Positions 425 through 9,170 of a DNA stretch of 64,000 bases are shown here, piece by piece (position 1 is the first letter of the stretch; the number at the start of each line of letters is the position of its first letter). The notes beneath the pieces were generated by a model, which saw only the letters and a program-made list of their open reading frames with translations, was not told the origin of the DNA and ran no database searches. Where the stretch lies: assembly GCA_003151335.1 (NCBI GenBank), contig PLXE01000112.1, forward strand, positions 2,981 to 66,980, given 5' to 3'. The translations under genes were made by a program, and so were the position numbers. The DNA comes from Acidobacteriaceae bacterium. Its GTDB lineage: Bacteria; Acidobacteriota; Terriglobia; Terriglobales; Acidobacteriaceae.

Positions 425-2809
425 CTATGGCGCGAAGTAGCTGGAGATGTCCAGAATCAATTGCGTGAGCCCGGACGCATAAACATCGACCTTTCCGTTA
501 TTGGTGGGCACGATCGCCATGTTGGAGGAGATTGACGCGTCCAGCGCGTTCAGCGTCGAGACCAAAGGCTGGTTGCTGCCGTCAGGCCACAGCGTCAGGT
601 AGCCCAGCGCGCCGACTGGCACCACACTCGCGTTGAAGACATACGCCTGCGCCAAGCTGGAGGCTGCACACCCCGCAGTCACCACATCCACCGGCGGACT
701 CAGGAGTCCGTTGAAGGCGCCGCCTGCGGTGCGAGTGTCGATGACCCTACAGGGCTGTACCCCGTACAGCGACAGTCCACCCATACCGGCCGCCGCGAAG
801 TAGCCATTGATATCAATGACCAAGTCGGTGTCGTTGGTCGGGTAAACCGAAACGTCACCACCCGTGCCGGCAACTACAATCGCGGCATCGGCGATGATCT
901 GGCCCGGGATGTCGTTCAAGGTGGAAACTGTAGGCCGGGTTTCACCGGTGGGCCACACCGTCATGTAAAACAGCGAGCCGTGGGGCACGACCGAGAAGTT
1001 CAGCGAATACGCGGCTACGCCGCTCGATGGAATGTTGCAGGTCGCGGCATCCAGTATGGGGAAGGCCCGCTCCTGGCCGGCGTTCAGGAACGGCGGTCCC
1101 AGGCCCGGGGGATAGGTATCGTGACGCGTGTCGGCGACCCGACAGGGTGGCAGCGGGTAGAAGGCCAGCGTGGAACCAGACACCGGTGCGAAGTAGCCAT
1201 TGACGTCGACGATCACATTGGTGGTGCTGGTGGCGTACACGCTGATCTGTCCGCTGGCGCCCGCCGGAATGATGGCGGCGTTGGCCTTGATGCGGCCATC
1301 CAGCGAGTTCAAGGTGGAAGCCAAGGGCCGCGGCTGTCCCGCGGGCCACACCGTCAGGTAGCCCAAAGGCCCCTGCGGAACCACCGAGACGTTCATGGAA
1401 TAGGCGGCTGCGGAAGGCAGAGTGGCGCAGCTGCCCGCGCCGGAAATGGGGAAGTTCTGGAGTATACCACCCTGAATCGGGCCCCCACCGCCGCGCTCCG
1501 GCCGGGTATCGACCGCACGACACGGCTGACTCAGCGGAACAAATTGCAGTGCGGTGCGAGGTGTGCCATCAATAACTGAGACCGTGGCGTCTTGACCATT
1601 AGCGACGTAAATTCTGTTGGTCACGGAGTTGACGGCCACGCCGTCGGAGGCATTTCCGACGTCAACGTTGGTGGTCGCGAGGGTGGCCCCGTCAATCACC
1701 GTCACCGTTCCACCGCCACAGTTGGGGATTTTGCCGCCGCAATTTGCCACGTAGATCTTGTTGCTCTGGGAATCGACCGCCAGGTCAATGGGATAGTACC
1801 CCACGGTGACCGTCGTAGTGTTATTGGTAGCGCCATCGATGACCGTGATGGTTCCGGCGCTGTTGCAAGTGGGATCGTTGCCACAGCCGTTTTCCACGTA
1901 GATCTTGTTGGTTATGGGATTAACGGCCACATGATACGGCGAAATCTCTGCGGAGACGGTTTGGGTGGAAAGGGTCGCCCCGTCGATCACCGTCACTGTT
2001 CCCGGAACGCCACCACCAAAGAAGCAGCCGGGAACGTTACCACAACTATTGTCCACGTAGATCTTGTTGGTTGCGGAGTTAACGGCCACAAAGTTGGGGG
2101 AAGCGCCGGAAATGACGGTTTGGGTGGAAAGGGTAGCCCCGTCGATCACCGTCACTGTTCCAGGGCTCTGGCATCCGGAATCGTTGCCGCAAAAGTTGTC
2201 CACGTAGATCTTGTTCGTCACCGAGTTGACCGCTACCTCCGAGGGGAAAATGCCAACTGTGATGGTGTCAGTGGAAAGCGTCGCCCCATCGATCACCGTC
2301 ACCGTTCCGGGGCCGCGATAGCCCTCGCACGAGGGAGACGAGCCAAACACATTGACGACGTAGATTTTGTTCGTGACGGAGTTAACCGCCAGATTCCGAG
2401 GGCAACTTCCAACCGTGACGGTTTGGGTAGTAAGCGTGGCCCCGTCGATCACCGTGACCGTTCCGGGGATCTGGCAGTCATAAAGGATGCCGCAACGGTT
2501 GACAACATAGATCTTATTGGTCACAGAATTGACCGCCATGGCATACGGTTCAAAGGCTACCGCGACGGTTTGTGTCGCCAGCGTAGTGCCGTCTATTGCA
2601 GTCACAGTTCCGCTGTAGGTTAGGCAAGTGGGGTCGTTGCCGCAGAAGTTAACCACATAGGTCTTGTTGGTAACAGGATTAACCGCTATAGCGCCGGGAG
2701 CATTCCCTACCGGTACCGTCGCGATTACAACCTGTGCGACGGTGGACGGCAATGCGATGGCAAGACTGAATACGAGGAGAACTAGGTGGAAACTGGGCAT
2801 GTTCCGCAT
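425..2809 (-). CDS. secreted YVTN-family beta-propeller repeat protein with three C-terminal ~120-aa modules
   Basis: 794-aa ORF with a signal peptide (MRNMPSFHLVLLVFSLAIALPSTVAQ). It has eight ~50-aa units with the motif (V/L)AVNxxTNKIYVxN...GTVTVIDGATL, followed by three tandem modules (PCRxxDTR...VVP...GYLTVWP...STLN...NGYFA). Confidence 0.75.
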   Translation of the reverse strand: MRNMPSFHLVLLVFSLAIALPSTVAQVVIATVPVGNAPGAIAVNPVTNKTYVVNFCGNDPTCLTYSGTVTAIDGTTLATQTVAVAFEPYAMAVNSVTNKIYVVNRCGILYDCQIPGTVTVIDGATLTTQTVTVGSCPRNLAVNSVTNKIYVVNVFGSSPSCEGYRGPGTVTVIDGATLSTDTITVGIFPSEVAVNSVTNKIYVDNFCGNDSGCQSPGTVTVIDGATLSTQTVISGASPNFVAVNSATNKIYVDNSCGNVPGCFFGGGVPGTVTVIDGATLSTQTVSAEISPYHVAVNPITNKIYVENGCGNDPTCNSAGTITVIDGATNNTTTVTVGYYPIDLAVDSQSNKIYVANCGGKIPNCGGGTVTVIDGATLATTNVDVGNASDGVAVNSVTNRIYVANGQDATVSVIDGTPRTALQFVPLSQPCRAVDTRPERGGGGPIQGGILQNFPISGAGSCATLPSAAAYSMNVSVVPQGPLGYLTVWPAGQPRPLASTLNSLDGRIKANAAIIPAGASGQISVYATSTTNVIVDVNGYFAPVSGSTLAFYPLPPCRVADTRHDTYPPGLGPPFLNAGQERAFPILDAATCNIPSSGVAAYSLNFSVVPHGSLFYMTVWPTGETRPTVSTLNDIPGQIIADAAIVVAGTGGDVSVYPTNDTDLVIDINGYFAAAGMGGLSLYGVQPCRVIDTRTAGGAFNGLLSPPVDVVTAGCAASSLAQAYVFNASVVPVGALGYLTLWPDGSNQPLVSTLNALDASISSNMAIVPTNNGKVDVYASGLTQLILDISSYFAP

Positions 2810-3567: not shown

Positions 3568-4065
3568 ATGAACATCTTCAGGTTGGTTGGCAACCATGGC
3601 AAAGAAGTCACCCGAGTTTTGCTTGCAGCTTTGCTTTTGGCGCTGCCACTCCCCGCCATGGCGGTGCTGGGCGACAACGCCGCGTCGGTGCTGACCGACC
3701 AGGCCCGCATGAAGGGAACTTTGCGCAGTGTGGACAATGGCACGTACGTGATGCACGAAATCACCTCGGGCGCCGGAACCGTGGTGCGGGAATTCGTGTC
3801 GCCGGCGGGAGTAGTATTCGGGGTCGCCTGGGAAGGACAATTTCCGCCTGATCTGCAGCAGCTCCTTGGTCCCTACTATCAGCAGGCGCAGCGGGCGGAG
3901 CAGGCGGGAACGCAGGAGCAGCAACCGCGCCGCAGCCGCGCTCCGGTCGTGATCAAGACCCCCGGTCTGGTGCTGTACGAGACTGGGCACATGCGGAGTT
4001 TCCACGGACAGGCCTACATTCCTCAACTGGTGCCACAAGGTGTTCAGGTCAGCGAAATCCATTGA
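3568..4065 (+). CDS. DUF2844-like small exported protein
   Basis: 165 aa with a signal peptide (LLAALLLALPLPAMA). The core GTYVMHEITSGAGTVVREFVSPAGVVFGVAWEGQFPPDLQQLLGPYY resembles the DUF2844 family as I remember it. It lies directly upstream of a DUF3443-like gene. Confidence 0.55.
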   Translation: MNIFRLVGNHGKEVTRVLLAALLLALPLPAMAVLGDNAASVLTDQARMKGTLRSVDNGTYVMHEITSGAGTVVREFVSPAGVVFGVAWEGQFPPDLQQLLGPYYQQAQRAEQAGTQEQQPRRSRAPVVIKTPGLVLYETGHMRSFHGQAYIPQLVPQGVQVSEIH

Positions 4066-4160
4066 GGAGACGACACCGCGCGATATGGTTTACCCCACAC
4101 CGTCGCCGTGAAATTCCCCAAGTCCCGAGTCGCGAGCAACTCTAGAAAGGAAGACATCGA

Positions 4161-5684
4161 ATGACAGGCCGCCCCGGTTGGTTTCTTGCCGTTCAGAAAT
4201 TTGCGTGGTGTGTCGCACCACTTTTGGCCGTGTGTCTGGTCGGCTGCGGCGGTTCCGAATACCGCTTTCCCGGTCATAAACCGCAACCGGCGGTCACGGG
4301 TGTGACGGTAGTGTGCTCGCCAGCAACCATCCAACCCAATCAAACCAGTCAGTGTTCGGCAACGGTGGTGGGCCAGGGCAGTTTCAATCCGACGGTTGAA
4401 TGGAGCGCAAGCGCGGGTCAGATTTCGACGGCAGGCTTATTTACGGCGCCATCGTTGCCGACATCGGTGACCATAACCGCCACCTCAATATGGGACCGAA
4501 CCAAGTCGGGGACGTTCACCATCACCGTGGGTAATTCGACGACCAGCAACGTGGCGCCCATTGTGGTGGACGCGGGGCCGGCGCCCCAAACCTTCATCAC
4601 TGCGAATGTAGCTTTCGTTACGGTGACGGTTTGTGTTCCGGGGACCACCACCTGTCAAAACATTGACCACGTGCAGGTGGATACAGGATCTTCCGGACTG
4701 CGCCTTTTGTCGTCCGCAAGTGGCGGCGAATTGGGCATCACGCTCCCCAATGAACCAGACTCCAGCGGGAATCCGCTGCTGGAGTGCGCGCTGTTCGGGA
4801 GCGGCTATGCCTGGGGAAACGTAGCTCAAGCAGACATTACCGTGGCGGGCGAAATGGCGTCAGCGGCGCCGGTGCAAGTGATCATCCCCTCGACCAGTTC
4901 GCCGCCGGTGCCGGCAAGCTGCTCCAGCCAAACCACGCAGCCGAACATTGGCGACAGCGTGCAAGCTCTGGGCGCCAACGGCATTCTCGGTGTCGGACTG
5001 TTTCAACAGGACTGCGGTCTGGCCTGTACCACAGCCAATAGAACCATTCCACCCGTGTATTACGATTGCCGGACGTTCGGCTGCAATCCGACGTATGTCA
5101 CTCTCGCACAGGAGGTGACGAACCCAGTCACTTTATTCGCCACTGACAAAAACGGGGTGCTGATTGAATTGCCAGCCGTGCCTAACGGAGGTTCGCCGAA
5201 TCCCAGCGGCAGCCTGGTCTTTGGCATCGGGACCCAAGCTAACAATGGCCTGGGAAGCGTCACCGTTTACACCGTGCCCGACAGCGGGACAAACGCCGGT
5301 GACATCACGACCACGTTTAATGGGACGAGCTATCCAGCAAGCTTCATCGACAGCGGTTCCAACGGGATTGTTTTCCTCGACACCGCAACCACCGGCATAC
5401 CGCTGTGCGCCATCCCGAACGACTCCTGGTATTGCCCCAACACGTCCCCGGATAACCTCTCAGCCGTAAACCAGGGCGCCAATGGAAATCACGGCACCGT
5501 CAATTTCAGCATTGAAGATGCGACCACGCTGTTTATCGGCGGCAATACAGCCTTCAGCACTCTGGGAGGACCATTTCCAGGCTTGTTCGATTGGGGATTG
5601 ACGTTTTTCTTTGGCCGCAACATGTTTACCGCGATCGAGAACATGGACACTCCCGGGGGCCCCGGGCCGTACTACGCATATTGA
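4161..5684 (+). CDS. DUF3443-like lipoprotein with Big_2 domain and pepsin-like DTGSS / GILGVG / DSGS motifs
   Basis: 507 aa with lipobox LVGC. An Ig-like segment (VTGVTVVCSPATIQPNQTSQCSATVVG...) is followed by VTVCVPGTTTCQNIDHVQVDTGSSGLRL (Asp codon 4680-4682), ANGILGVGLF and ASFIDSGSNGIVFLD (Asp codon 5349-5351). Confidence 0.7.
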   Translation: MTGRPGWFLAVQKFAWCVAPLLAVCLVGCGGSEYRFPGHKPQPAVTGVTVVCSPATIQPNQTSQCSATVVGQGSFNPTVEWSASAGQISTAGLFTAPSLPTSVTITATSIWDRTKSGTFTITVGNSTTSNVAPIVVDAGPAPQTFITANVAFVTVTVCVPGTTTCQNIDHVQVDTGSSGLRLLSSASGGELGITLPNEPDSSGNPLLECALFGSGYAWGNVAQADITVAGEMASAAPVQVIIPSTSSPPVPASCSSQTTQPNIGDSVQALGANGILGVGLFQQDCGLACTTANRTIPPVYYDCRTFGCNPTYVTLAQEVTNPVTLFATDKNGVLIELPAVPNGGSPNPSGSLVFGIGTQANNGLGSVTVYTVPDSGTNAGDITTTFNGTSYPASFIDSGSNGIVFLDTATTGIPLCAIPNDSWYCPNTSPDNLSAVNQGANGNHGTVNFSIEDATTLFIGGNTAFSTLGGPFPGLFDWGLTFFFGRNMFTAIENMDTPGGPGPYYAY

Positions 5685-5829
5685 CTTGGTGGGTGTGGCG
5701 CGTCCAAGCTGCGCGGAAGTCGAAGGTTTCCCGGCATCTCGGCGATCCGTCAATGGACCGGCTTGGATGGGCACGCGGCTCGAGAATCGCGGCTCCGGCC
5801 ATGCGGGAGTCATGGACGGGCTGCCAAAA

Positions 5830-6640: not shown

Positions 6641-7918
6641 CTATTTCGCGGCTGCTACCTCCACTCGCGCGAGCGCTTCCAGCCGCGACAACCGCTGCTG
6701 TAGCGTGGCATTCTGCACTTGCAATTGTTGTTTGAGGTCCTCGATTTCCCGCTGCTGCGCTTTGATCAGCTCAGCCTGAGCTTCGGTGCGGTGATACTGC
6801 TTCTGCACTTCGTTGAGCAGCATGGTGGCCAGATACTGATAGCACACGGTATACGGCTTGCCGTCGTTGTCGTAGGCGACAAGGTCGGGATAGACCTTCG
6901 CCACTTCTTCCGCAATCAAACCGTACTGCAAGGTACGTTCGCCGTTGGCGTACGCGGGCTTATAGAGGAAAGTTACCGGCCGCAGCTTCATCAAGGCGTC
7001 GCTGCTGTCGCCCATGTCGCGCACCTGCTCCTTAAAGCGTAGCGAGGAGGGCGAAGTTCCGAGTTGTCCGAGGGAGTTGACATAGACCGGAATACCTGAG
7101 GATGCGGTTGAACCGTAGATGCCGGCAATGTAAGCAGTGCCTTGAAAGTTCGGATCCCCGATCCGGATGGCATTGAATTCGGTGCCCGAAGTTGGGCCCT
7201 CGTTTCCAATGTAGATGTCGCTGCTGCCGGTGGTGTTGTTGAAGCCAGCGTTAAGGCCTAAGAAGGTGTTGTCCGAACCGGTGGCGTTGTTGATGCCAGC
7301 GTTACCGCCCGAGAAGGTGTTGTCCGAACCGGTGGTGTTGCTGTAGCCAGCCTGCCAGCCGGAGAAGGTGTTCGCGAGGCCGGTAGTGTTGCTGGTGCCG
7401 GTCTGGTAGCCGTAGAAGGTATTCGCGGCACCGGTAGTATTGCGTAAGCCGGCGATGGCGCCCGAGAAGGTGTTCTGGAAACCGGTGGTGTTGCTGGAGC
7501 CACTGAAACCGCCGTAGAAGGCATTCGCGTAACCGGTCGTGTTGCTGGAGCCAGACAGGTAGCCGGAAAAGGTGTTGTTTACTCCCTGCCCTGCAACGTC
7601 ACTAGCACCTGCCCCCACGCCGAGAAATAAGTTGGAGTCAGCCGGACTGCCGATACTCACGACCCGACTCCCGCCGATCTGGTAGCTCGTGCCCGCGTTA
7701 AAGACGTTAGCGGTCCCAGTACCGTCAATGTTGAAGTCGGCGGACTTCTGTTGGTAGCGCCCCAGACCGTACGTGTTCTGGATGAAGCACAGTGCAGTGT
7801 TACAAGGCTGGCCCGCCGGGTTGGAGGTTTGTGGTTGGGACTTTTGTTGGGCTGAACTCATGCAGACTAGCAACAAGGTAGCCAGAGCGATAACGATGCT
7901 GGTGCTGATGCGGCGCAT
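6641..7918 (-). CDS. secreted tail-fibre-like repeat protein with C-terminal S74 intramolecular-chaperone domain
   Basis: 425 aa with a signal peptide. It has many NTFSG/NTTG ~14-aa repeats. The C-terminus SSLRFKEQVRDMGDSSDALMKLRPVTFLYK...YGLIAEEVAKVYPDLV...YQYLATMLLNEVQKQ plus a coiled coil matches the Peptidase_S74 chaperone-of-endosialidase pattern. Confidence 0.75.
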   Translation of the reverse strand: MRRISTSIVIALATLLLVCMSSAQQKSQPQTSNPAGQPCNTALCFIQNTYGLGRYQQKSADFNIDGTGTANVFNAGTSYQIGGSRVVSIGSPADSNLFLGVGAGASDVAGQGVNNTFSGYLSGSSNTTGYANAFYGGFSGSSNTTGFQNTFSGAIAGLRNTTGAANTFYGYQTGTSNTTGLANTFSGWQAGYSNTTGSDNTFSGGNAGINNATGSDNTFLGLNAGFNNTTGSSDIYIGNEGPTSGTEFNAIRIGDPNFQGTAYIAGIYGSTASSGIPVYVNSLGQLGTSPSSLRFKEQVRDMGDSSDALMKLRPVTFLYKPAYANGERTLQYGLIAEEVAKVYPDLVAYDNDGKPYTVCYQYLATMLLNEVQKQYHRTEAQAELIKAQQREIEDLKQQLQVQNATLQQRLSRLEALARVEVAAAK

Positions 7919-8170: not shown

Positions 8171-8974
8171 CTAACCTCGTTTGGCCAGAATCAGACGAAT
8201 GAAACCGACTGCGGCCCCGGCCAAGGCCAATGCAATCGTGGGCGGCTCTGGGGTCTGGCCCCCGCCACTATCCTCCTGGTCGGCGAATGCGGTGATTTCG
8301 TACCACTGATTCTCGTAGAGAGGGATGGTATTTGTTAGTTCACCGGAGAAGGTGTAGTTCCACGAACCGTTCGGACCAATCTGGTTCGCGATATCTTGGA
8401 ACAAAACGACCTGACCATCTACGGAGAGTGTGAATGCCACCTCGGAGCCGGCAAACAGTCCGGAGGAATCGGTCAAGAGGCTCTGCATGGAGTTGAGCAG
8501 GACCCCGAAGGTCACATTCACCGGGCCGCCTGCGCCGGTGATCTCGAACATGTTGTAAAGCGTCTCTTGGCCCACAGCGCTCGCGGCAATGAGTCCGCCG
8601 GGGATGTTCACTCCGCCAGAGCTCATCTGGATCAAGTTTAGGGCGTCGGCGGAGCTCTGTGCCGAGGCGAACTGCACACTGGCACTCGCCTGCGCCAGTC
8701 CGCCGAGGCTGGAGTTGTACTGCGAATTGTTCCCCCCCCAGCTGTTTTGCGCCTGCGCGAAGGCTTCTGCCGTCCAGGGGTCAAGGAAGACGATCATGCC
8801 GCTGCTGGAGGTCATCGTGAAGTCGCTGATCTGCATGTAACTGAAGCTGGTCGAGTCCGCATATAGTGGCGGAGAGATCAGAGTTGAAGCCGCCAGCAGG
8901 AACACCAGCGAAACTGTATAGACACAGACGAGCCGAAAGCGGGACGCAGGGAAAAAGCAGGCCAGGCGATTCAT
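8171..8974 (-). CDS. PEP-CTERM sorting-domain protein
   Basis: ATG at 8974 follows GGAGGGTGAG. There is an N-terminal hydrophobic signal. The C-terminus TPEPPTIALALAGAAVGFIRLILAKRG shows PEP, a TM helix and a basic tail. Confidence 0.7.
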   Translation of the reverse strand: MNRLACFFPASRFRLVCVYTVSLVFLLAASTLISPPLYADSTSFSYMQISDFTMTSSSGMIVFLDPWTAEAFAQAQNSWGGNNSQYNSSLGGLAQASASVQFASAQSSADALNLIQMSSGGVNIPGGLIAASAVGQETLYNMFEITGAGGPVNVTFGVLLNSMQSLLTDSSGLFAGSEVAFTLSVDGQVVLFQDIANQIGPNGSWNYTFSGELTNTIPLYENQWYEITAFADQEDSGGGQTPEPPTIALALAGAAVGFIRLILAKRG

Positions 8975-8975
8975 C

Positions 8976-9170
8976 TCACCCTCCAAATTGCTTAGGGACC
9001 CAGTAACCGAGCCGGTTGTCGCAGTGCACATTCCATCGACAATCGGCCGCGCCATAGAAGGCAGACGCGCGTTGTATTGCAGGCTCTTGAATGGTTGAGG
9101 CATAGCCGCCACTTGCGGACAGGACGGCACAGGTGATCAGCAGCAGCAATGGCCCACGGTGCTTGCTCAT
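8976..9170 (-). CDS. small secreted Cys-containing peptide, translationally coupled to the PEP-CTERM gene
   Basis: 64-aa ORF, MSKHRGPLLLLITCAVLSASGG..., that looks like a signal peptide. The mature ~42 aa carries DCRWNVHCD. Stop TGA (8978-8976) is followed by 1 nt and then the ATG of the next gene (TGAGATG). GAAGG lies upstream of its ATG. Confidence 0.4.
   Translation of the reverse strand: MSKHRGPLLLLITCAVLSASGGYASTIQEPAIQRASAFYGAADCRWNVHCDNRLGYWVPKQFGG

What the first reader, a model, noticed from the sequence alone, without database searches (positions are those of the whole stretch)
3568..5684. DUF2844/DUF3443-type gene pair whose large lipoprotein carries the three pepsin hallmark motifs in order
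Seen:
- The 507-aa lipoprotein (lipobox LVGC, Ig-like domain) contains VQVDTGSSGLRL, then ANGILGVGL, then SFIDSGSNGIVF. The two Asp residues are 223 aa apart.
- Pepsin-family (A1) enzymes have F-D-T-G-S-S-N-L-W, D-G-I-L-G-L and I-V-D-T-G-T-S in the same order.
- A 165-aa exported partner lies 95 nt upstream on the same strand.

Established: bacterial pepsin homologues are rare. From memory, the two DUFs travel together and have no assigned function.

Inference: this is a bilobed aspartic protease tethered to a membrane, with a small periplasmic partner that may act as an inhibitor, chaperone or substrate.
Basis: partly seen in the sequence, partly recalled or inferred. Interest (0 to 1): 0.62.

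Follow-up and report, generated by a model that had tools for sequence, protein, structure and literature searches.

The report
Lipid-anchored bacterial pepsin-fold protease with partner
A peat-soil acidobacterium encodes a membrane-tethered protein of an "unknown function" family that is predicted to fold like stomach pepsin and keeps both catalytic aspartates, always next to a small secreted partner gene; this points to a very large, overlooked, exported bacterial branch of pepsin-type proteases.

Summary
The ORF at 3568-4065 is DUF2844 (PF11005, E 4e-39). The ORF at 4161-5684 is a 507-aa lipoprotein whose residues 127-507 are DUF3443 (PF11925, E 4e-120).

An AlphaFold2 model (pLDDT 90.8) matches only family A1 aspartic proteinases in the PDB. 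All top 50 hits are A1 enzymes (rhizopuspepsin E 5e-11, probability 1.00) at 10-15% identity. No sequence method links the two families significantly.

Across 150 representatives that are at most 50% identical to each other:
- D174 is kept in 144/146 and D397 in 137/141.
- The psi-loop Gly277 is kept in 147/148.
- Ten Cys columns are conserved.

The pairing is near-obligate. 78 of 81 loci have DUF2844 directly upstream. In 121 genomes of the order the counts are 35 both, 0 DUF2844 alone, 2 fragments and 84 neither. Metatranscriptome contigs bridge the two genes.

DUF2844 folds confidently but resembles no solved structure, so its role (inhibitor, foldase or substrate) remains inference. One clade lost D397, and a subclade of it lost the partner.

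Best reading: an exported, lipid-anchored, acid-active aspartic endopeptidase of a new clan-AA family with a dedicated partner. I found no literature on either family. Earlier notes of this scan reached the same reading in other genomes.

The parts
3568..4065 (+). DUF2844 gene (165 aa plus TGA stop): small secreted partner with no Cys
   Evidence: PF11005 E 4.1e-39, residues 30-164 cover the whole profile. AF2 model pLDDT 88.1. No significant structural relative in the PDB.
3568..3663 (+). Signal peptide of DUF2844 (residues 1-32, ...PLPAMA|VLGDN); the L34-G35 just after the cleavage site is invariant
   Evidence: Read from the sequence. In alignment A3 of 72 sequences, A32 is at least 90% conserved and L34 and G35 are invariant. 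No signal-peptide predictor was available.
4066..4160 (+). 95-nt spacer between the two genes; it is transcribed, and a purine-rich AAAGGAAG lies about 7 nt before the ATG
   Evidence: Sequence. RNA contigs bridge it in 4 metatranscriptomes. No convincing terminator between the genes. Most other pairs are spaced -4 to +13 nt.
4161..5684 (+). DUF3443 gene (507 aa plus TGA stop): lipoprotein made of an Ig-like spacer and a pepsin-fold domain
   Evidence: PF11925 E 3.8e-120. AF2 pLDDT 90.8. Foldseek top 50 hits are all A1 peptidases.
4161..4247 (+). Lipoprotein signal peptide ending in lipobox L26-V-G-C29 (4236-4247); Cys29 is the predicted lipidated first residue, followed by G-G-S
   Evidence: Sequence. 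C29 is invariant in A1 and at least 90% conserved in A2. Residues 1-37 are disordered in the model.
4290..4541 (+). Ig-like (Big_2-type) beta-sandwich spacer, residues 44-127; its copy number varies from 0 to 3 or more among homologues
   Evidence: Seven strands with pLDDT about 88-97. Weak match to PDB 7quz. Extra copies in P0011 and P0024. Pfam Big_2 in P0151.
4539..5681 (+). Pepsin-fold catalytic domain, residues 127-507 (the DUF3443 profile)
4671..4706 (+). N-lobe active-site motif V-Q-V-D174-T-G-S-S-G-L-R-L (D174 codon 4680-4682)
   Evidence: In 150 representatives: D 144/146, T 144, G 137, S 145. hhalign aligns D174 to pepsin Asp32.
4773..4844 (+). Beta-hairpin at the position of the pepsin flap (residues 205-228: PLLECALFGSGYAWGNVAQADITV)
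   Evidence: Strands 205-212 and 215-228. hhalign places F212-G-S-G on Tyr75-Gly-Thr-Gly. F212 135/147, W218 134, G219 146.
4974..4997 (+). N-lobe psi-loop hydrophobic-hydrophobic-Gly motif A-N-G-I275-L276-G277-V-G
   Evidence: G277 147/148, N273 135, G274 138. Aligned to pepsin F-D-G-I120-L-G122-L-A.
5340..5369 (+). C-lobe active-site motif S-F-I-D397-S-G-S-N-G-I (D397 codon 5349-5351)
   Evidence: D 137/141, S/T398 139, G399 140, S/T400 135. It follows strand 389-396. Aligned to pepsin Asp215 in a non-significant hhalign.
5586..5639 (+). C-terminal F-D-W478-G479-L-T-F-F-F-G-R-N-M-F-T-A-I-E, the counterpart of pepsin W299-I-L-G302-D-V-F-I-R...Y-T-V-F-D (C-lobe psi-loop Gly and last strands)
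   Evidence: G479 140/140, W478 103 (F 20, Y 8), G485 138, R486 119. Local hhalign match to pepsin 285-324. The strand-Gly-helix-strand pattern is seen in the model.

Best explanation
The 507-aa product of 4161-5684 is an exported, lipid-anchored, bilobed aspartic endopeptidase with the pepsin fold. It belongs to a large bacterial family (DUF3443) that is too diverged from eukaryotic family A1 to be recognised by sequence. Its layout is Sec/Lsp signal peptide, lipidated Cys29, one Ig-like spacer, and then the catalytic domain held away from the membrane.

Proposed mechanism:
- D174 (N-lobe, DTGS) and D397 (C-lobe, DSGS) sit at the tips of the two psi-loops and together activate a water molecule, as Asp32 and Asp215 do in pepsin.
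- The hairpin at residues 205-228 covers the cleft like the pepsin flap.
- Five probable disulfides stabilise the protein outside the cytoplasm.
- Ser/Thr at the Thr218-equivalent position (S400), a mature pI of about 4 and the acidic peat habitat suggest an acidic pH optimum.

The gene is co-transcribed with DUF2844, which lies upstream. DUF2844 is a small, Cys-free secreted protein with a fold unlike any solved structure. I infer that it binds the protease in the periplasm as a dedicated regulator, meaning a trans-acting inhibitor or folding helper that does the job of the prosegment of pepsinogen.

Shown here: identity of both families, predicted fold, conservation of the motifs, pairing, and transcription.
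Inferred: catalysis, pH optimum, which membrane carries the anchor, and the partner's role.

My separate odds are about 0.9 for a pepsin fold with a conserved catalytic dyad, about 0.7 for an active aspartic peptidase, and about 0.35 for the partner being an inhibitor or foldase.
For: Fold:
- AF2 model with pLDDT 90.8 and pTM 0.78; the catalytic domain is at or above 92 in nearly every block.
- Foldseek against the PDB finds 494 hits at E<=1e-3. The top 50 are all A1 peptidases (2apr 4.9e-11, 4ape TM 0.63 normalised to target length, pepsin 6xcy 3.5e-9), each spanning about 410 columns, so both lobes are covered.

Catalytic residues in 150 representatives at most 50% identical to each other:
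- D174 144/146, T175 144, G176 137, S177 145.
- D397 137/141, S/T398 139, G399 140.
- Both Asp residues together in 132 of the 137 sequences aligned at both columns.
- Psi-loop G277 147/148. C-lobe G479 140/140.

Residue equivalences: N-lobe against N-lobe hhalign gives E 5.9e-4 over 159 columns. It places D174 on Asp32, the flap hairpin on Tyr75-Gly-Thr-Gly and ILG on ILG. The reference A1 sequences were verified against the PDB.

Export: signal peptide, lipobox and a conserved C29. Ten Cys columns are conserved in 116-147 of 150.

Partner:
- 78/81 loci have DUF2844 directly upstream on the same strand.
- Genome-level 2x2 in 121 genomes: 35 both, 2 DUF3443 only (contig-edge fragments), 0 DUF2844 only, 84 neither.
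- There are two such pairs in this genome.
- Spacing is usually -4 to +13 nt.
- No other neighbour is conserved.
- RNA contigs from 4 metatranscriptomes cover both genes and bridge the spacer.

Habitat: peat and permafrost metagenomes.

Link between partner and catalysis: the only loci without a partner lie inside the only clade that lost D397.
Against: - No biochemical data exist for any member. I found no paper that mentions either family.
- The link to A1 is structural only. There is no Pfam Asp or TAXi hit even at E<=1, and no PDB sequence or profile hit. Whole-length hhalign probability is only 8%, and the C-lobe alone reaches 1%.
- The structure is a prediction. I could not read its coordinates, so the juxtaposition of the two Asp carboxylates is inferred, not measured.
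- The flap Tyr75 position is Phe in most members (F212 135/147).
- Foldseek rmsd values are large (6-8 A), which reflects many insertions.
- The partner's role has no direct support. Its fold matches nothing. Asp-loss variants P0062, P0078 and P0085 keep the partner. The partner-loss observation is a single evolutionary event.
- All four RNA runs come from one study, and DNA carry-over cannot be excluded.
Confidence: 0.7

Rival explanations
1. DUF3443 has the pepsin fold but is not an enzyme. It would be a binding or inhibitor protein that reuses the cleft, like the wheat xylanase inhibitor TAXI-I or the pregnancy-associated glycoproteins within family A1. DUF2844 would be its ligand.
For: Activity is untested. 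Sequence similarity to active A1 enzymes is negligible. The flap Tyr is Phe. A natural clade (L023, L024, L027, L039, L068, L083) and scattered variants (P0045, P0062, P0078, P0085 and others) have lost an Asp yet remain intact ORFs, so non-catalytic members exist.
Against: In known non-catalytic A1-fold proteins the D[TS]G motifs decay. Here the whole DTGS...ILG...DSGS set is kept in more than 95% of 150 representatives that share at most 50% identity. That is hard to explain without catalysis. The Asp-loss clade sits on long branches (0.46-0.55 against a median of 0.15), as expected for a change of function away from the family norm.
Confidence: 0.12
2. The protease is real, but DUF2844 is its dedicated substrate or cargo rather than a regulator. 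The protease would process DUF2844, for example by trimming its conserved mature N-terminus or its basic loop, to release an active protein or peptide.
For: The same strict pairing and co-transcription apply. The mature N-terminus (L34-G35...S40...D44) is invariant, and a low-confidence basic loop (residues 118-126) lies between structured halves. Both are features of a processing site. The partner is retained by some Asp-loss variants, which a pure inhibitor role does not predict.
Against: A 1:1 operon-encoded enzyme-substrate pair with no downstream effector gene or conserved neighbour is unusual. The partner was lost only in a lineage where catalysis was already lost, which fits either model. 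No data discriminate between them.
Confidence: 0.2
3. DUF2844 is a trafficking helper (LolA/LolB-like carrier, or a factor for surface exposure) for this particular lipoprotein. It would not be a regulator of the active site.
For: The weak Foldseek list includes LolA/LolB/RseB-type proteins (3bk5, 3buu, 9tpm, 2p4b). The cargo is a lipoprotein.
Against: Those matches are not significant (E 0.1-0.8, probability 0.04-0.14, TM 0.13-0.25). DUF2844 has only 7 strands, against the 11-strand LolA barrel.
Confidence: 0.08
4. The motifs are a chance resemblance and the fold assignment is an artefact of structure prediction.
For: Two D[TS]G[STA] matches occur by composition with P of about 0.008, which is not negligible genome-wide. 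All sequence-level comparisons are non-significant or marginal.
Against: The motifs are conserved family-wide. The model is confident, with five models at pLDDT 88.7-90.8 and no templates used. 494 PDB hits at E<=1e-3 are headed exclusively by A1 enzymes. Independent local profile alignments pick exactly the catalytic, flap and psi-loop segments.
Confidence: 0.02

Closest known systems
Eukaryotic pepsin family, MEROPS A1 / Pfam Asp PF00026 (pepsin, rhizopuspepsin, endothiapepsin, penicillopepsin, plasmepsin II, BACE1, renin)
   Same: Single-chain bilobal beta fold. One D-[TS]-G-[ST] per lobe, each preceded by hydrophobic residues and followed downstream by a hydrophobic-hydrophobic-Gly psi-loop motif. 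A hairpin at the flap position. C-terminal W-x-x-G...R...T-x-[FI]-[DE] strands. Disulfide-stabilised and extracytoplasmic. Ser/Thr after the second DxG, as in acid-active pepsins.
   Different: - 10-15% identity and no significant sequence or profile match.
- About 380 residues with several insertions, and 223 rather than 183 residues between the two Asp.
- Phe instead of the flap Tyr75.
- A different disulfide pattern (10 conserved Cys).
- No N-terminal prosegment. Instead there is a lipoprotein signal, an Ig-like spacer and a separately encoded obligate partner.
- Bacterial.
Bacterial A1 homologues: shewasin A/D and the seven species of Rawlings & Bateman 2009 (PMC2761423, PMC4814920)
   Same: Bacterial, bilobed, two D[TS]G motifs. 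Shewasins are pepstatin-sensitive and most active near pH 4 (PMC4814920).
   Different: - The known homologues are recognisable members of A1 by sequence.
- They are restricted to seven species.
- They lack signal peptides and prosegments, and shewasin D is cytoplasmic (PMC2761423, PMC4814920).
- They have Ala in the second motif.
- DUF3443 is not detectable by the A1 profile. It is exported and lipidated, has an operon partner, and comprises about 4,000 clusters at 50% identity.
Pepsinogen-type zymogens and proteinaceous A1 inhibitors (prosegment; Ascaris PI-3 in PDB 1f34; yeast IA3): functional analogy for DUF2844
   Same: A small polypeptide dedicated to one aspartic protease. DUF2844 proteins are mostly basic (median pI 8.9), against an acidic enzyme (pI about 4).
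   Different: - DUF2844 is a separate gene product with its own signal peptide and a 130-residue alpha/beta fold with no solved relative.
- The window's own copy is not basic (mature pI 6.45).
- Binding and inhibition are untested.
Bacterial retropepsin-like (single-lobe, clan AA) envelope proteases: APRc of Rickettsia and the secreted retropepsin-like enzymes of Pseudomonas (PMC4140852, PMC11957051)
   Same: Bacterial, clan AA, envelope-associated or secreted aspartic proteases.
   Different: Those are single-lobe proteins that must dimerise. DUF3443 is a covalently bilobed chain with one Asp per lobe.

Membership tests
Pfam PF11925 (DUF3443) | Score above the curated gathering threshold over the full profile | tested here: met
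   401.6 bits against a cut-off of 25; profile positions 2-367 of 367.
Pfam PF11005 (DUF2844) | Score above the curated gathering threshold over the full profile | tested here: met
   133.9 bits against a cut-off of 22.4; profile positions 1-130 of 130.
MEROPS A1 / Pfam Asp PF00026 (pepsin family) | Significant sequence match to the family profile | tested here: not met
   No Asp, TAXi_N or TAXi_C hit even at E<=1. No PDB sequence or profile hit to any A1 chain. hhalign against a 5-enzyme A1 profile gives probability 8%.
MEROPS A1 / clan AA pepsin-like fold | Single chain with two homologous beta lobes and a cleft between them (bilobal pepsin fold) | tested here: met
   Predicted model only. 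pLDDT 90.8. The Foldseek top 50 are all A1 enzymes, with E down to 4.9e-11, probability 1.00, TM up to 0.63 normalised to target length, and about 410 aligned columns.
MEROPS A1 / clan AA pepsin-like fold | Catalytic Xaa-Xaa-Asp-[Thr/Ser]-Gly-[Ser/Thr/Ala] in each lobe, conserved in the family | tested here: met
   Q-V-D174-T-G-S and F-I-D397-S-G-S. D174 144/146 and D397 137/141. Both together in 132/137.
MEROPS A1 / clan AA pepsin-like fold | Hydrophobic-hydrophobic-Gly downstream of each Asp (psi-loop) | tested here: inconclusive
   The N-lobe is clearly met: I275-L276-G277, with G 147/148, aligned to pepsin I120-L-G122. The C-lobe has an invariant G479 preceded by W478 but by D477. The equivalence to G302 rests on the secondary-structure pattern and a non-significant alignment.
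MEROPS A1 / clan AA pepsin-like fold | Flap hairpin carrying Tyr75 | tested here: inconclusive
   A hairpin at 205-228 is present and aligns to the flap. The Tyr75-equivalent is F212 (F 135/147, Y 7); Y216 and W218 lie nearby.
MEROPS A1 / clan AA pepsin-like fold | The two Asp carboxylates lie within hydrogen-bond distance at the base of the cleft | not testable with these tools
   The tools return no model coordinates. This is inferred only from the full-length structural alignment to A1 enzymes and the motif equivalences.
Aspartic endopeptidase (function) | Pepstatin-sensitive proteolysis at acidic pH, abolished by mutation of either Asp | not testable with these tools
   This needs recombinant protein. 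No published assay for any DUF3443 member was found.
Bacterial lipoprotein | Signal peptide ending in a lipobox [LVI][ASTVI][GAS]C with a conserved Cys | tested here: met
   M1...L26-V-G-C29. C29 is invariant in 25 close homologues and at least 90% conserved in 79. No dedicated predictor (SignalP or LipoP) was available.
DUF2844-DUF3443 two-gene module | DUF2844 immediately upstream on the same strand, and co-presence in genomes | tested here: met
   78/81 loci. 35 both, 2 fragments, 0 DUF2844 alone and 84 neither in 121 genomes. RNA contigs span the junction.

The most novel reading that the evidence does not exclude
DUF2844 plus DUF3443 would be a 'split zymogen'. This is an ancient, purely bacterial, exported branch of bilobed pepsin-type proteases, deserving its own MEROPS family in clan AA. 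Its prosegment-like inhibitor or foldase would be encoded as a separate, co-translated and independently secreted protein, released or degraded at low pH. Because the family is large and already bilobed, the lobe duplication and fusion that created the pepsin architecture could have happened in bacteria, with eukaryotic A1 as a later offshoot.
Probability: 0.2. Interest if true: 0.8.

Novelty: new variant of a known kind. Interest (0 to 1): 0.6.

Why it matters
Pepsin-type (A1) proteases are textbook eukaryotic enzymes. The literature I could read reports bacterial homologues in only seven species, all without signal peptides, and shewasin D is cytoplasmic (PMC2761423, PMC4814920).

If DUF3443 proteins are active, then bilobed aspartic proteases are widespread in soil bacteria. 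The family has about 4,000 clusters at 50% identity. It is near-universal in this acidobacterial genus and also occurs in Betaproteobacteria, Myxococcota and Vulcanimicrobiota.

These proteins would work outside the cytoplasm on a lipid tether, and they come with a dedicated partner that has no counterpart in eukaryotic A1 biology. This would:
- assign a function to two sizeable DUFs;
- bear on the long-standing question of where and when the pepsin lobe duplication arose;
- point to an acid-adapted proteolytic system in peat, where acidobacterial nitrogen and carbon turnover matters;
- offer acid-active bacterial proteases that can be expressed without a eukaryotic host.

The natural clade that lost one Asp, and then the partner, provides a built-in comparison for working out what the partner does.

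Tried and rejected
1. Sequence-level homology to pepsins gave nothing significant. I tried Pfam at E<=1, NCBIfam, phmmer and profile hmmsearch against all PDB chains, hhalign of the family profile against porcine pepsin (probability 1.4%), and hhalign against a 5-enzyme A1 profile (probability 8%). The best was N-lobe against N-lobe (probability 29%, E 5.9e-4). The relationship is therefore claimed at the fold level only.

2. D374-S-G-T as an alternative catalytic motif is rejected. It lies in a lineage-specific insertion that 134/150 representatives lack.

3. Mis-binning or a foreign island as the explanation for 1 of 151 genomes positive in the phylum sample is rejected. C95 is the largest contig and its composition is typical of the genome. 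38/41 genomes of the genus carry the family.

4. A wider conserved operon is rejected. No neighbour recurs in more than 16/80 loci, and those that do are unrelated housekeeping genes.

5. A structural identity for DUF2844 could not be found. There is no significant PDB match, and the LolA/LolB-like hits are noise-level.

6. 'Loss of the catalytic Asp goes with loss of the partner' is downgraded as a general rule. The three unpaired loci are one subclade of one Asp-loss clade. Three independent Asp-loss variants keep DUF2844.

7. Natural DUF2844-DUF3443 fusions are essentially absent. There is one dubious partial case (P0233) in 270 proteins.

8. Literature searches for DUF3443, DUF2844, PF11925 and PF11005 found nothing relevant. 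The PF11005 hits are Plasmodium gene identifiers.

9. My first neighbour count (44/84 paired) and first column count were artefacts of overlapping stop-to-stop ORFs and of hmmalign --trim numbering. Both were corrected.
Full report
**1. The observation**

ORF listing shows a 165-aa ORF at 3568-4065 (+) and a 507-aa ORF at 4161-5684 (+), separated by 95 nt.

hmmscan assigns the first ORF to PF11005 DUF2844 (E 4.1e-39, full profile). Residues 127-507 of the second ORF match PF11925 DUF3443 (E 3.8e-120, full profile). NCBIfam has no model for either.

The quoted motifs are at residues 171-182 (VQVDTGSSGLRL), 272-279 (ANGILGVG) and 394-403 (SFIDSGSNGI). D174 and D397 are 223 residues apart, and the lipobox is L26-V-G-C29.

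It lies in an insertion that 134 of 150 family representatives lack, so it is irrelevant.

**2. Size and conservation of the family**

A word-indexed search returned more than 7,300 hits. An exhaustive HMMER scan of 1.84 billion representatives found 3,973 clusters at 50% identity with E<=1e-3, of which 1,100 are at E<=1e-30.

I aligned the best 150 representatives to a family HMM and counted residues:

| Position | Conservation |
|---|---|
| D174 | 144/146 |
| T175 | 144 |
| G176 | 137 |
| S177 | 145 |
| G179 | 145 |
| R181 | 142 |
| N273 | 135 |
| G274 | 138 |
| G277 | 147/148 |
| D397 | 137/141 |
| S/T398 | 139 |
| G399 | 140 |
| S/T400 | 135 |

Both Asp residues co-occur in 132 of the 137 sequences aligned at both columns. 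G479 is invariant (140/140). W478, F482, F483, G485 and R486 are nearly invariant. Ten Cys columns are kept in 116-147 of 150, which fits five disulfides in an extracytoplasmic protein.

**3. Fold**

AlphaFold2 was run on a 79-sequence alignment built from fetched loci. It gave mean pLDDT 90.8 and pTM 0.78. Residues 1-37 are disordered (signal peptide and tether). Residues 44-123 form an all-beta Ig-like module. A mainly-beta domain runs from about residue 131 to 507.

Foldseek against the PDB gave 494 matches at E<=1e-3. The first 50 are all family A1 aspartic proteinases: rhizopuspepsin 2apr (E 4.9e-11), endothiapepsin 4ape (TM 0.63 normalised to target length), penicillopepsin, plasmepsin II, BACE1, cathepsin D and porcine pepsin. 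Each has probability 1.00, covers about 410 alignment columns and shares 10-15% identity. No DUF3443 structure is in the PDB.

The tools do not return coordinates, so I could not measure the Asp-Asp distance.

**4. Sequence-level link to A1**

There is no significant link by any method: Pfam at E<=1, PDB phmmer and profile search, or hhalign against porcine pepsin (probability 1.4%).

Each was confirmed as a full-length match to its PDB entry. I then aligned them.

- Whole-length hhalign gives probability 8% and E 0.004. It aligns AFVTVTVCVPGT...VQVDTGSSGLRLLSS with YFGTIGIGTPAQ...VIFDTGSSNLWVPSV, so D174 falls on Asp32.
- N-lobe against N-lobe gives probability 29% and E 5.9e-4 over 159 columns. 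It places D174 on Asp32, F212-G-S-G on Tyr75-Gly-Thr-Gly (the flap tip) and ANGILGVG on FDGILGLA.
- C-lobe against C-lobe is not significant (probability 1%), yet it places FIDSGS on IVDTGT, so D397 falls on Asp215.
- The C-terminal FDWGLTFFFGRNMFTAIE matches ELWILGDVFIRQYYTVFD locally.

The residue equivalences are therefore coherent, but the homology claim rests on structure.

**5. The partner**

DUF2844 has an AxA signal-peptidase site (PAMA|VLGDN). L34-G35 directly after the site is invariant, as are D44, F84, W88, P94, G140, G147 and P156. It has no Cys.

Its AF2 model is confident (pLDDT 88.1). The order of elements is helix 39-48, four strands 51-90, a long helix 96-117, a lower-confidence basic loop, and three strands 127-150.

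Foldseek finds nothing significant (best E 0.094, TM below 0.4). Scattered LolA/LolB/RseB hits are at noise level.

Family members are mostly basic (median pI 8.9), although this copy is not (6.45). The mature DUF3443 protein has pI 4.05.

**6. Pairing, context and transcription**

- Among 80 loci fetched from one genome per species, 78 of 81 DUF3443 genes have DUF2844 directly upstream on the same strand.
- In a sample of 121 genomes of the window's order, 35 have both families, 2 have only a contig-edge DUF3443 fragment, none has DUF2844 alone, and 84 have neither. The two genes are adjacent wherever both were listed.
- The window's own genome has a second pair 128 kb away on the same contig.
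- Spacing is usually a 4-nt overlap up to about 13 nt, so the 95-nt spacer here is unusually long.
- No other neighbour recurs in more than 16 of 80 loci, and those that do are unrelated: an acyl-CoA synthetase, a GAF/PilZ protein, a menaquinone-synthesis gene and DprA.
- The DNA occurs in peat and permafrost metagenomes.
- Four soil metatranscriptomes, all from one study, contain assembled RNA contigs at 95-100% identity over both genes. Single contigs bridge the spacer: X27 at 3878-4612, X26 at 3838-4258, X25 at 3991-4187, and X28 at 3753-4089 and 4056-4455. DNA carry-over cannot be excluded.
- A consensus scan found no sigma-70-like promoter and no convincing terminator between the genes.

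**7. Distribution**

- The family is in 38 of 41 genomes of the genus (26 of 27 high-quality ones).
- It is in 15 of 32 genera of the order.
- It is in none of 150 other genomes sampled across the phylum.
- I checked the contig because of that last figure. C95 is the largest contig (231 kb) and its GC and tetranucleotide composition are typical of the genome.
- In a maximum-likelihood tree of the catalytic domains, sequences labelled Betaproteobacteria, Myxococcota and Vulcanimicrobiota are nested among Acidobacteriota. This indicates horizontal transfer of the module.

**8. A natural experiment**

Six of the 79 locus sequences have D397 replaced by Ser or Ala. They form one clade (support 94/92) with long stem branches of 0.46-0.55, against a median terminal branch of 0.15.

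Inside that clade, one subclade (L023, L024, L083) keeps DUF2844. The other (L027, L039, L068) comprises exactly the three loci without a partner.

So the partner has been lost only where catalysis had already been lost, which fits a role tied to the active enzyme. However, this is a single event. Three other, independent Asp-loss variants still have DUF2844 upstream: P0062 D->E, P0078 D->A and P0085 D->G. The last is called at only 86 aa.

**9. Other architecture**

Longer family members add only Ig-like or adhesin-type modules at the N-terminus: Big_2, DUF11 and ASH/HYDIN-type Ig. The window's clade has one such module, and relatives have none to three. This fits a variable-length stalk holding a catalytic head away from the membrane.

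**10. Interpretation**

The best-supported reading is an exported, lipid-anchored, bilobed aspartic endopeptidase of a new family in clan AA. It would work with a D174/D397 dyad under a flap-like hairpin, probably at acidic pH. The pH inference rests on Ser at the Thr218-equivalent position, an acidic pI and the peat habitat.

It is co-expressed with a dedicated secreted partner. The partner's role is open:
- A trans-acting prosegment-like inhibitor or foldase is my preferred inference, at about 0.35.
- A dedicated substrate is at about 0.2.
- A trafficking helper is at about 0.08.

It is not a member of Pfam Asp/A1 by the sequence criterion, which was tested and failed. It does meet the structural and motif criteria of the pepsin fold.

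The comparison literature reports bacterial A1 homologues in seven species only, without signal peptides, and shewasin D is cytoplasmic (PMC2761423, PMC4814920). No searchable paper mentions DUF3443 or DUF2844.

Earlier AI notes of this scan reached the same reading in at least 19 other genomes. I treat them as leads, not as support, and I repeated the key tests here.

Noticed in passing
L023, L024, L083 (paired) and L027, L039, L068 (unpaired); catalytic-domain matches start near position 4000 in each locus: A single acidobacterial clade of DUF3443 paralogues has replaced the second catalytic Asp (IDSG to ISSG or IASG) and sits on long branches. One of its two subclades has also lost the upstream DUF2844 gene. 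These are probable pseudo-proteases and a natural test case for the partner's role.
   Followed up: partly
G000 contig C95:134827-136797 (locus L002: 643-1146 and 1159-2712): A second DUF2844-DUF3443 pair lies on the same contig, 128 kb from the first. Both Asp residues are intact and the spacer is 12 nt. The two DUF3443 copies share 59% identity, so the duplication is old or the copies were acquired separately.
   Followed up: partly
window 425-2809 (-): A 794-aa exported protein with about nine copies of a roughly 45-residue repeat (…VNSVTNKIYV…GTVTVIDGATL…), followed by three copies of a roughly 110-residue C-terminal repeat. It has no Pfam hit at E<=0.001.
   Followed up: no
window 6641-7918 (-): A 425-aa exported protein with Gly/Asn/Thr-rich NTFSG-type repeats and a C-terminal Peptidase_S74 domain (the intramolecular chaperone of endosialidase and tail-fibre proteins, E 8e-11), followed by a coiled-coil tail. 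This architecture is usually seen in phage tail fibres, yet here it sits in a chromosomal context.
   Followed up: no
window 8171-9130 (-): A 319-aa ORF ending in …TPEPPTIALALAGAAVGFIRLILAKRG. This looks like a PEP-CTERM sorting signal: PEP, then a hydrophobic helix, then a basic tail. It was read from the sequence only and not checked with an HMM.
   Followed up: no
P0085 locus (JGI 3300047160; no DNA held): In this D397-to-Gly variant, the upstream DUF2844 gene is called at only 86 aa, with an unannotated 195-aa ORF just before it. The partner may be decaying.
   Followed up: no
P0233 (421 aa, from the representative search): A single protein with a partial DUF2844 match (residues 15-73), followed by the Ig module and the N-lobe of DUF3443. 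It is either a rare fusion or a frameshifted or chimeric gene call.
   Followed up: no
window 4116 and 3908-5782: All four metatranscriptome strains lack one base at 4116 in the spacer and carry many mostly third-position differences. Related strains of this population are transcriptionally active in another soil study.
   Followed up: no
(genome samples): The distribution is strongly uneven: 38/41 genomes in the genus, 15/32 genera in the order, and 0/150 other genomes in the even phylum sample. Yet the family also appears in Vicinamibacteria, Betaproteobacteria, Myxococcota and Vulcanimicrobiota loci.
   Followed up: partly
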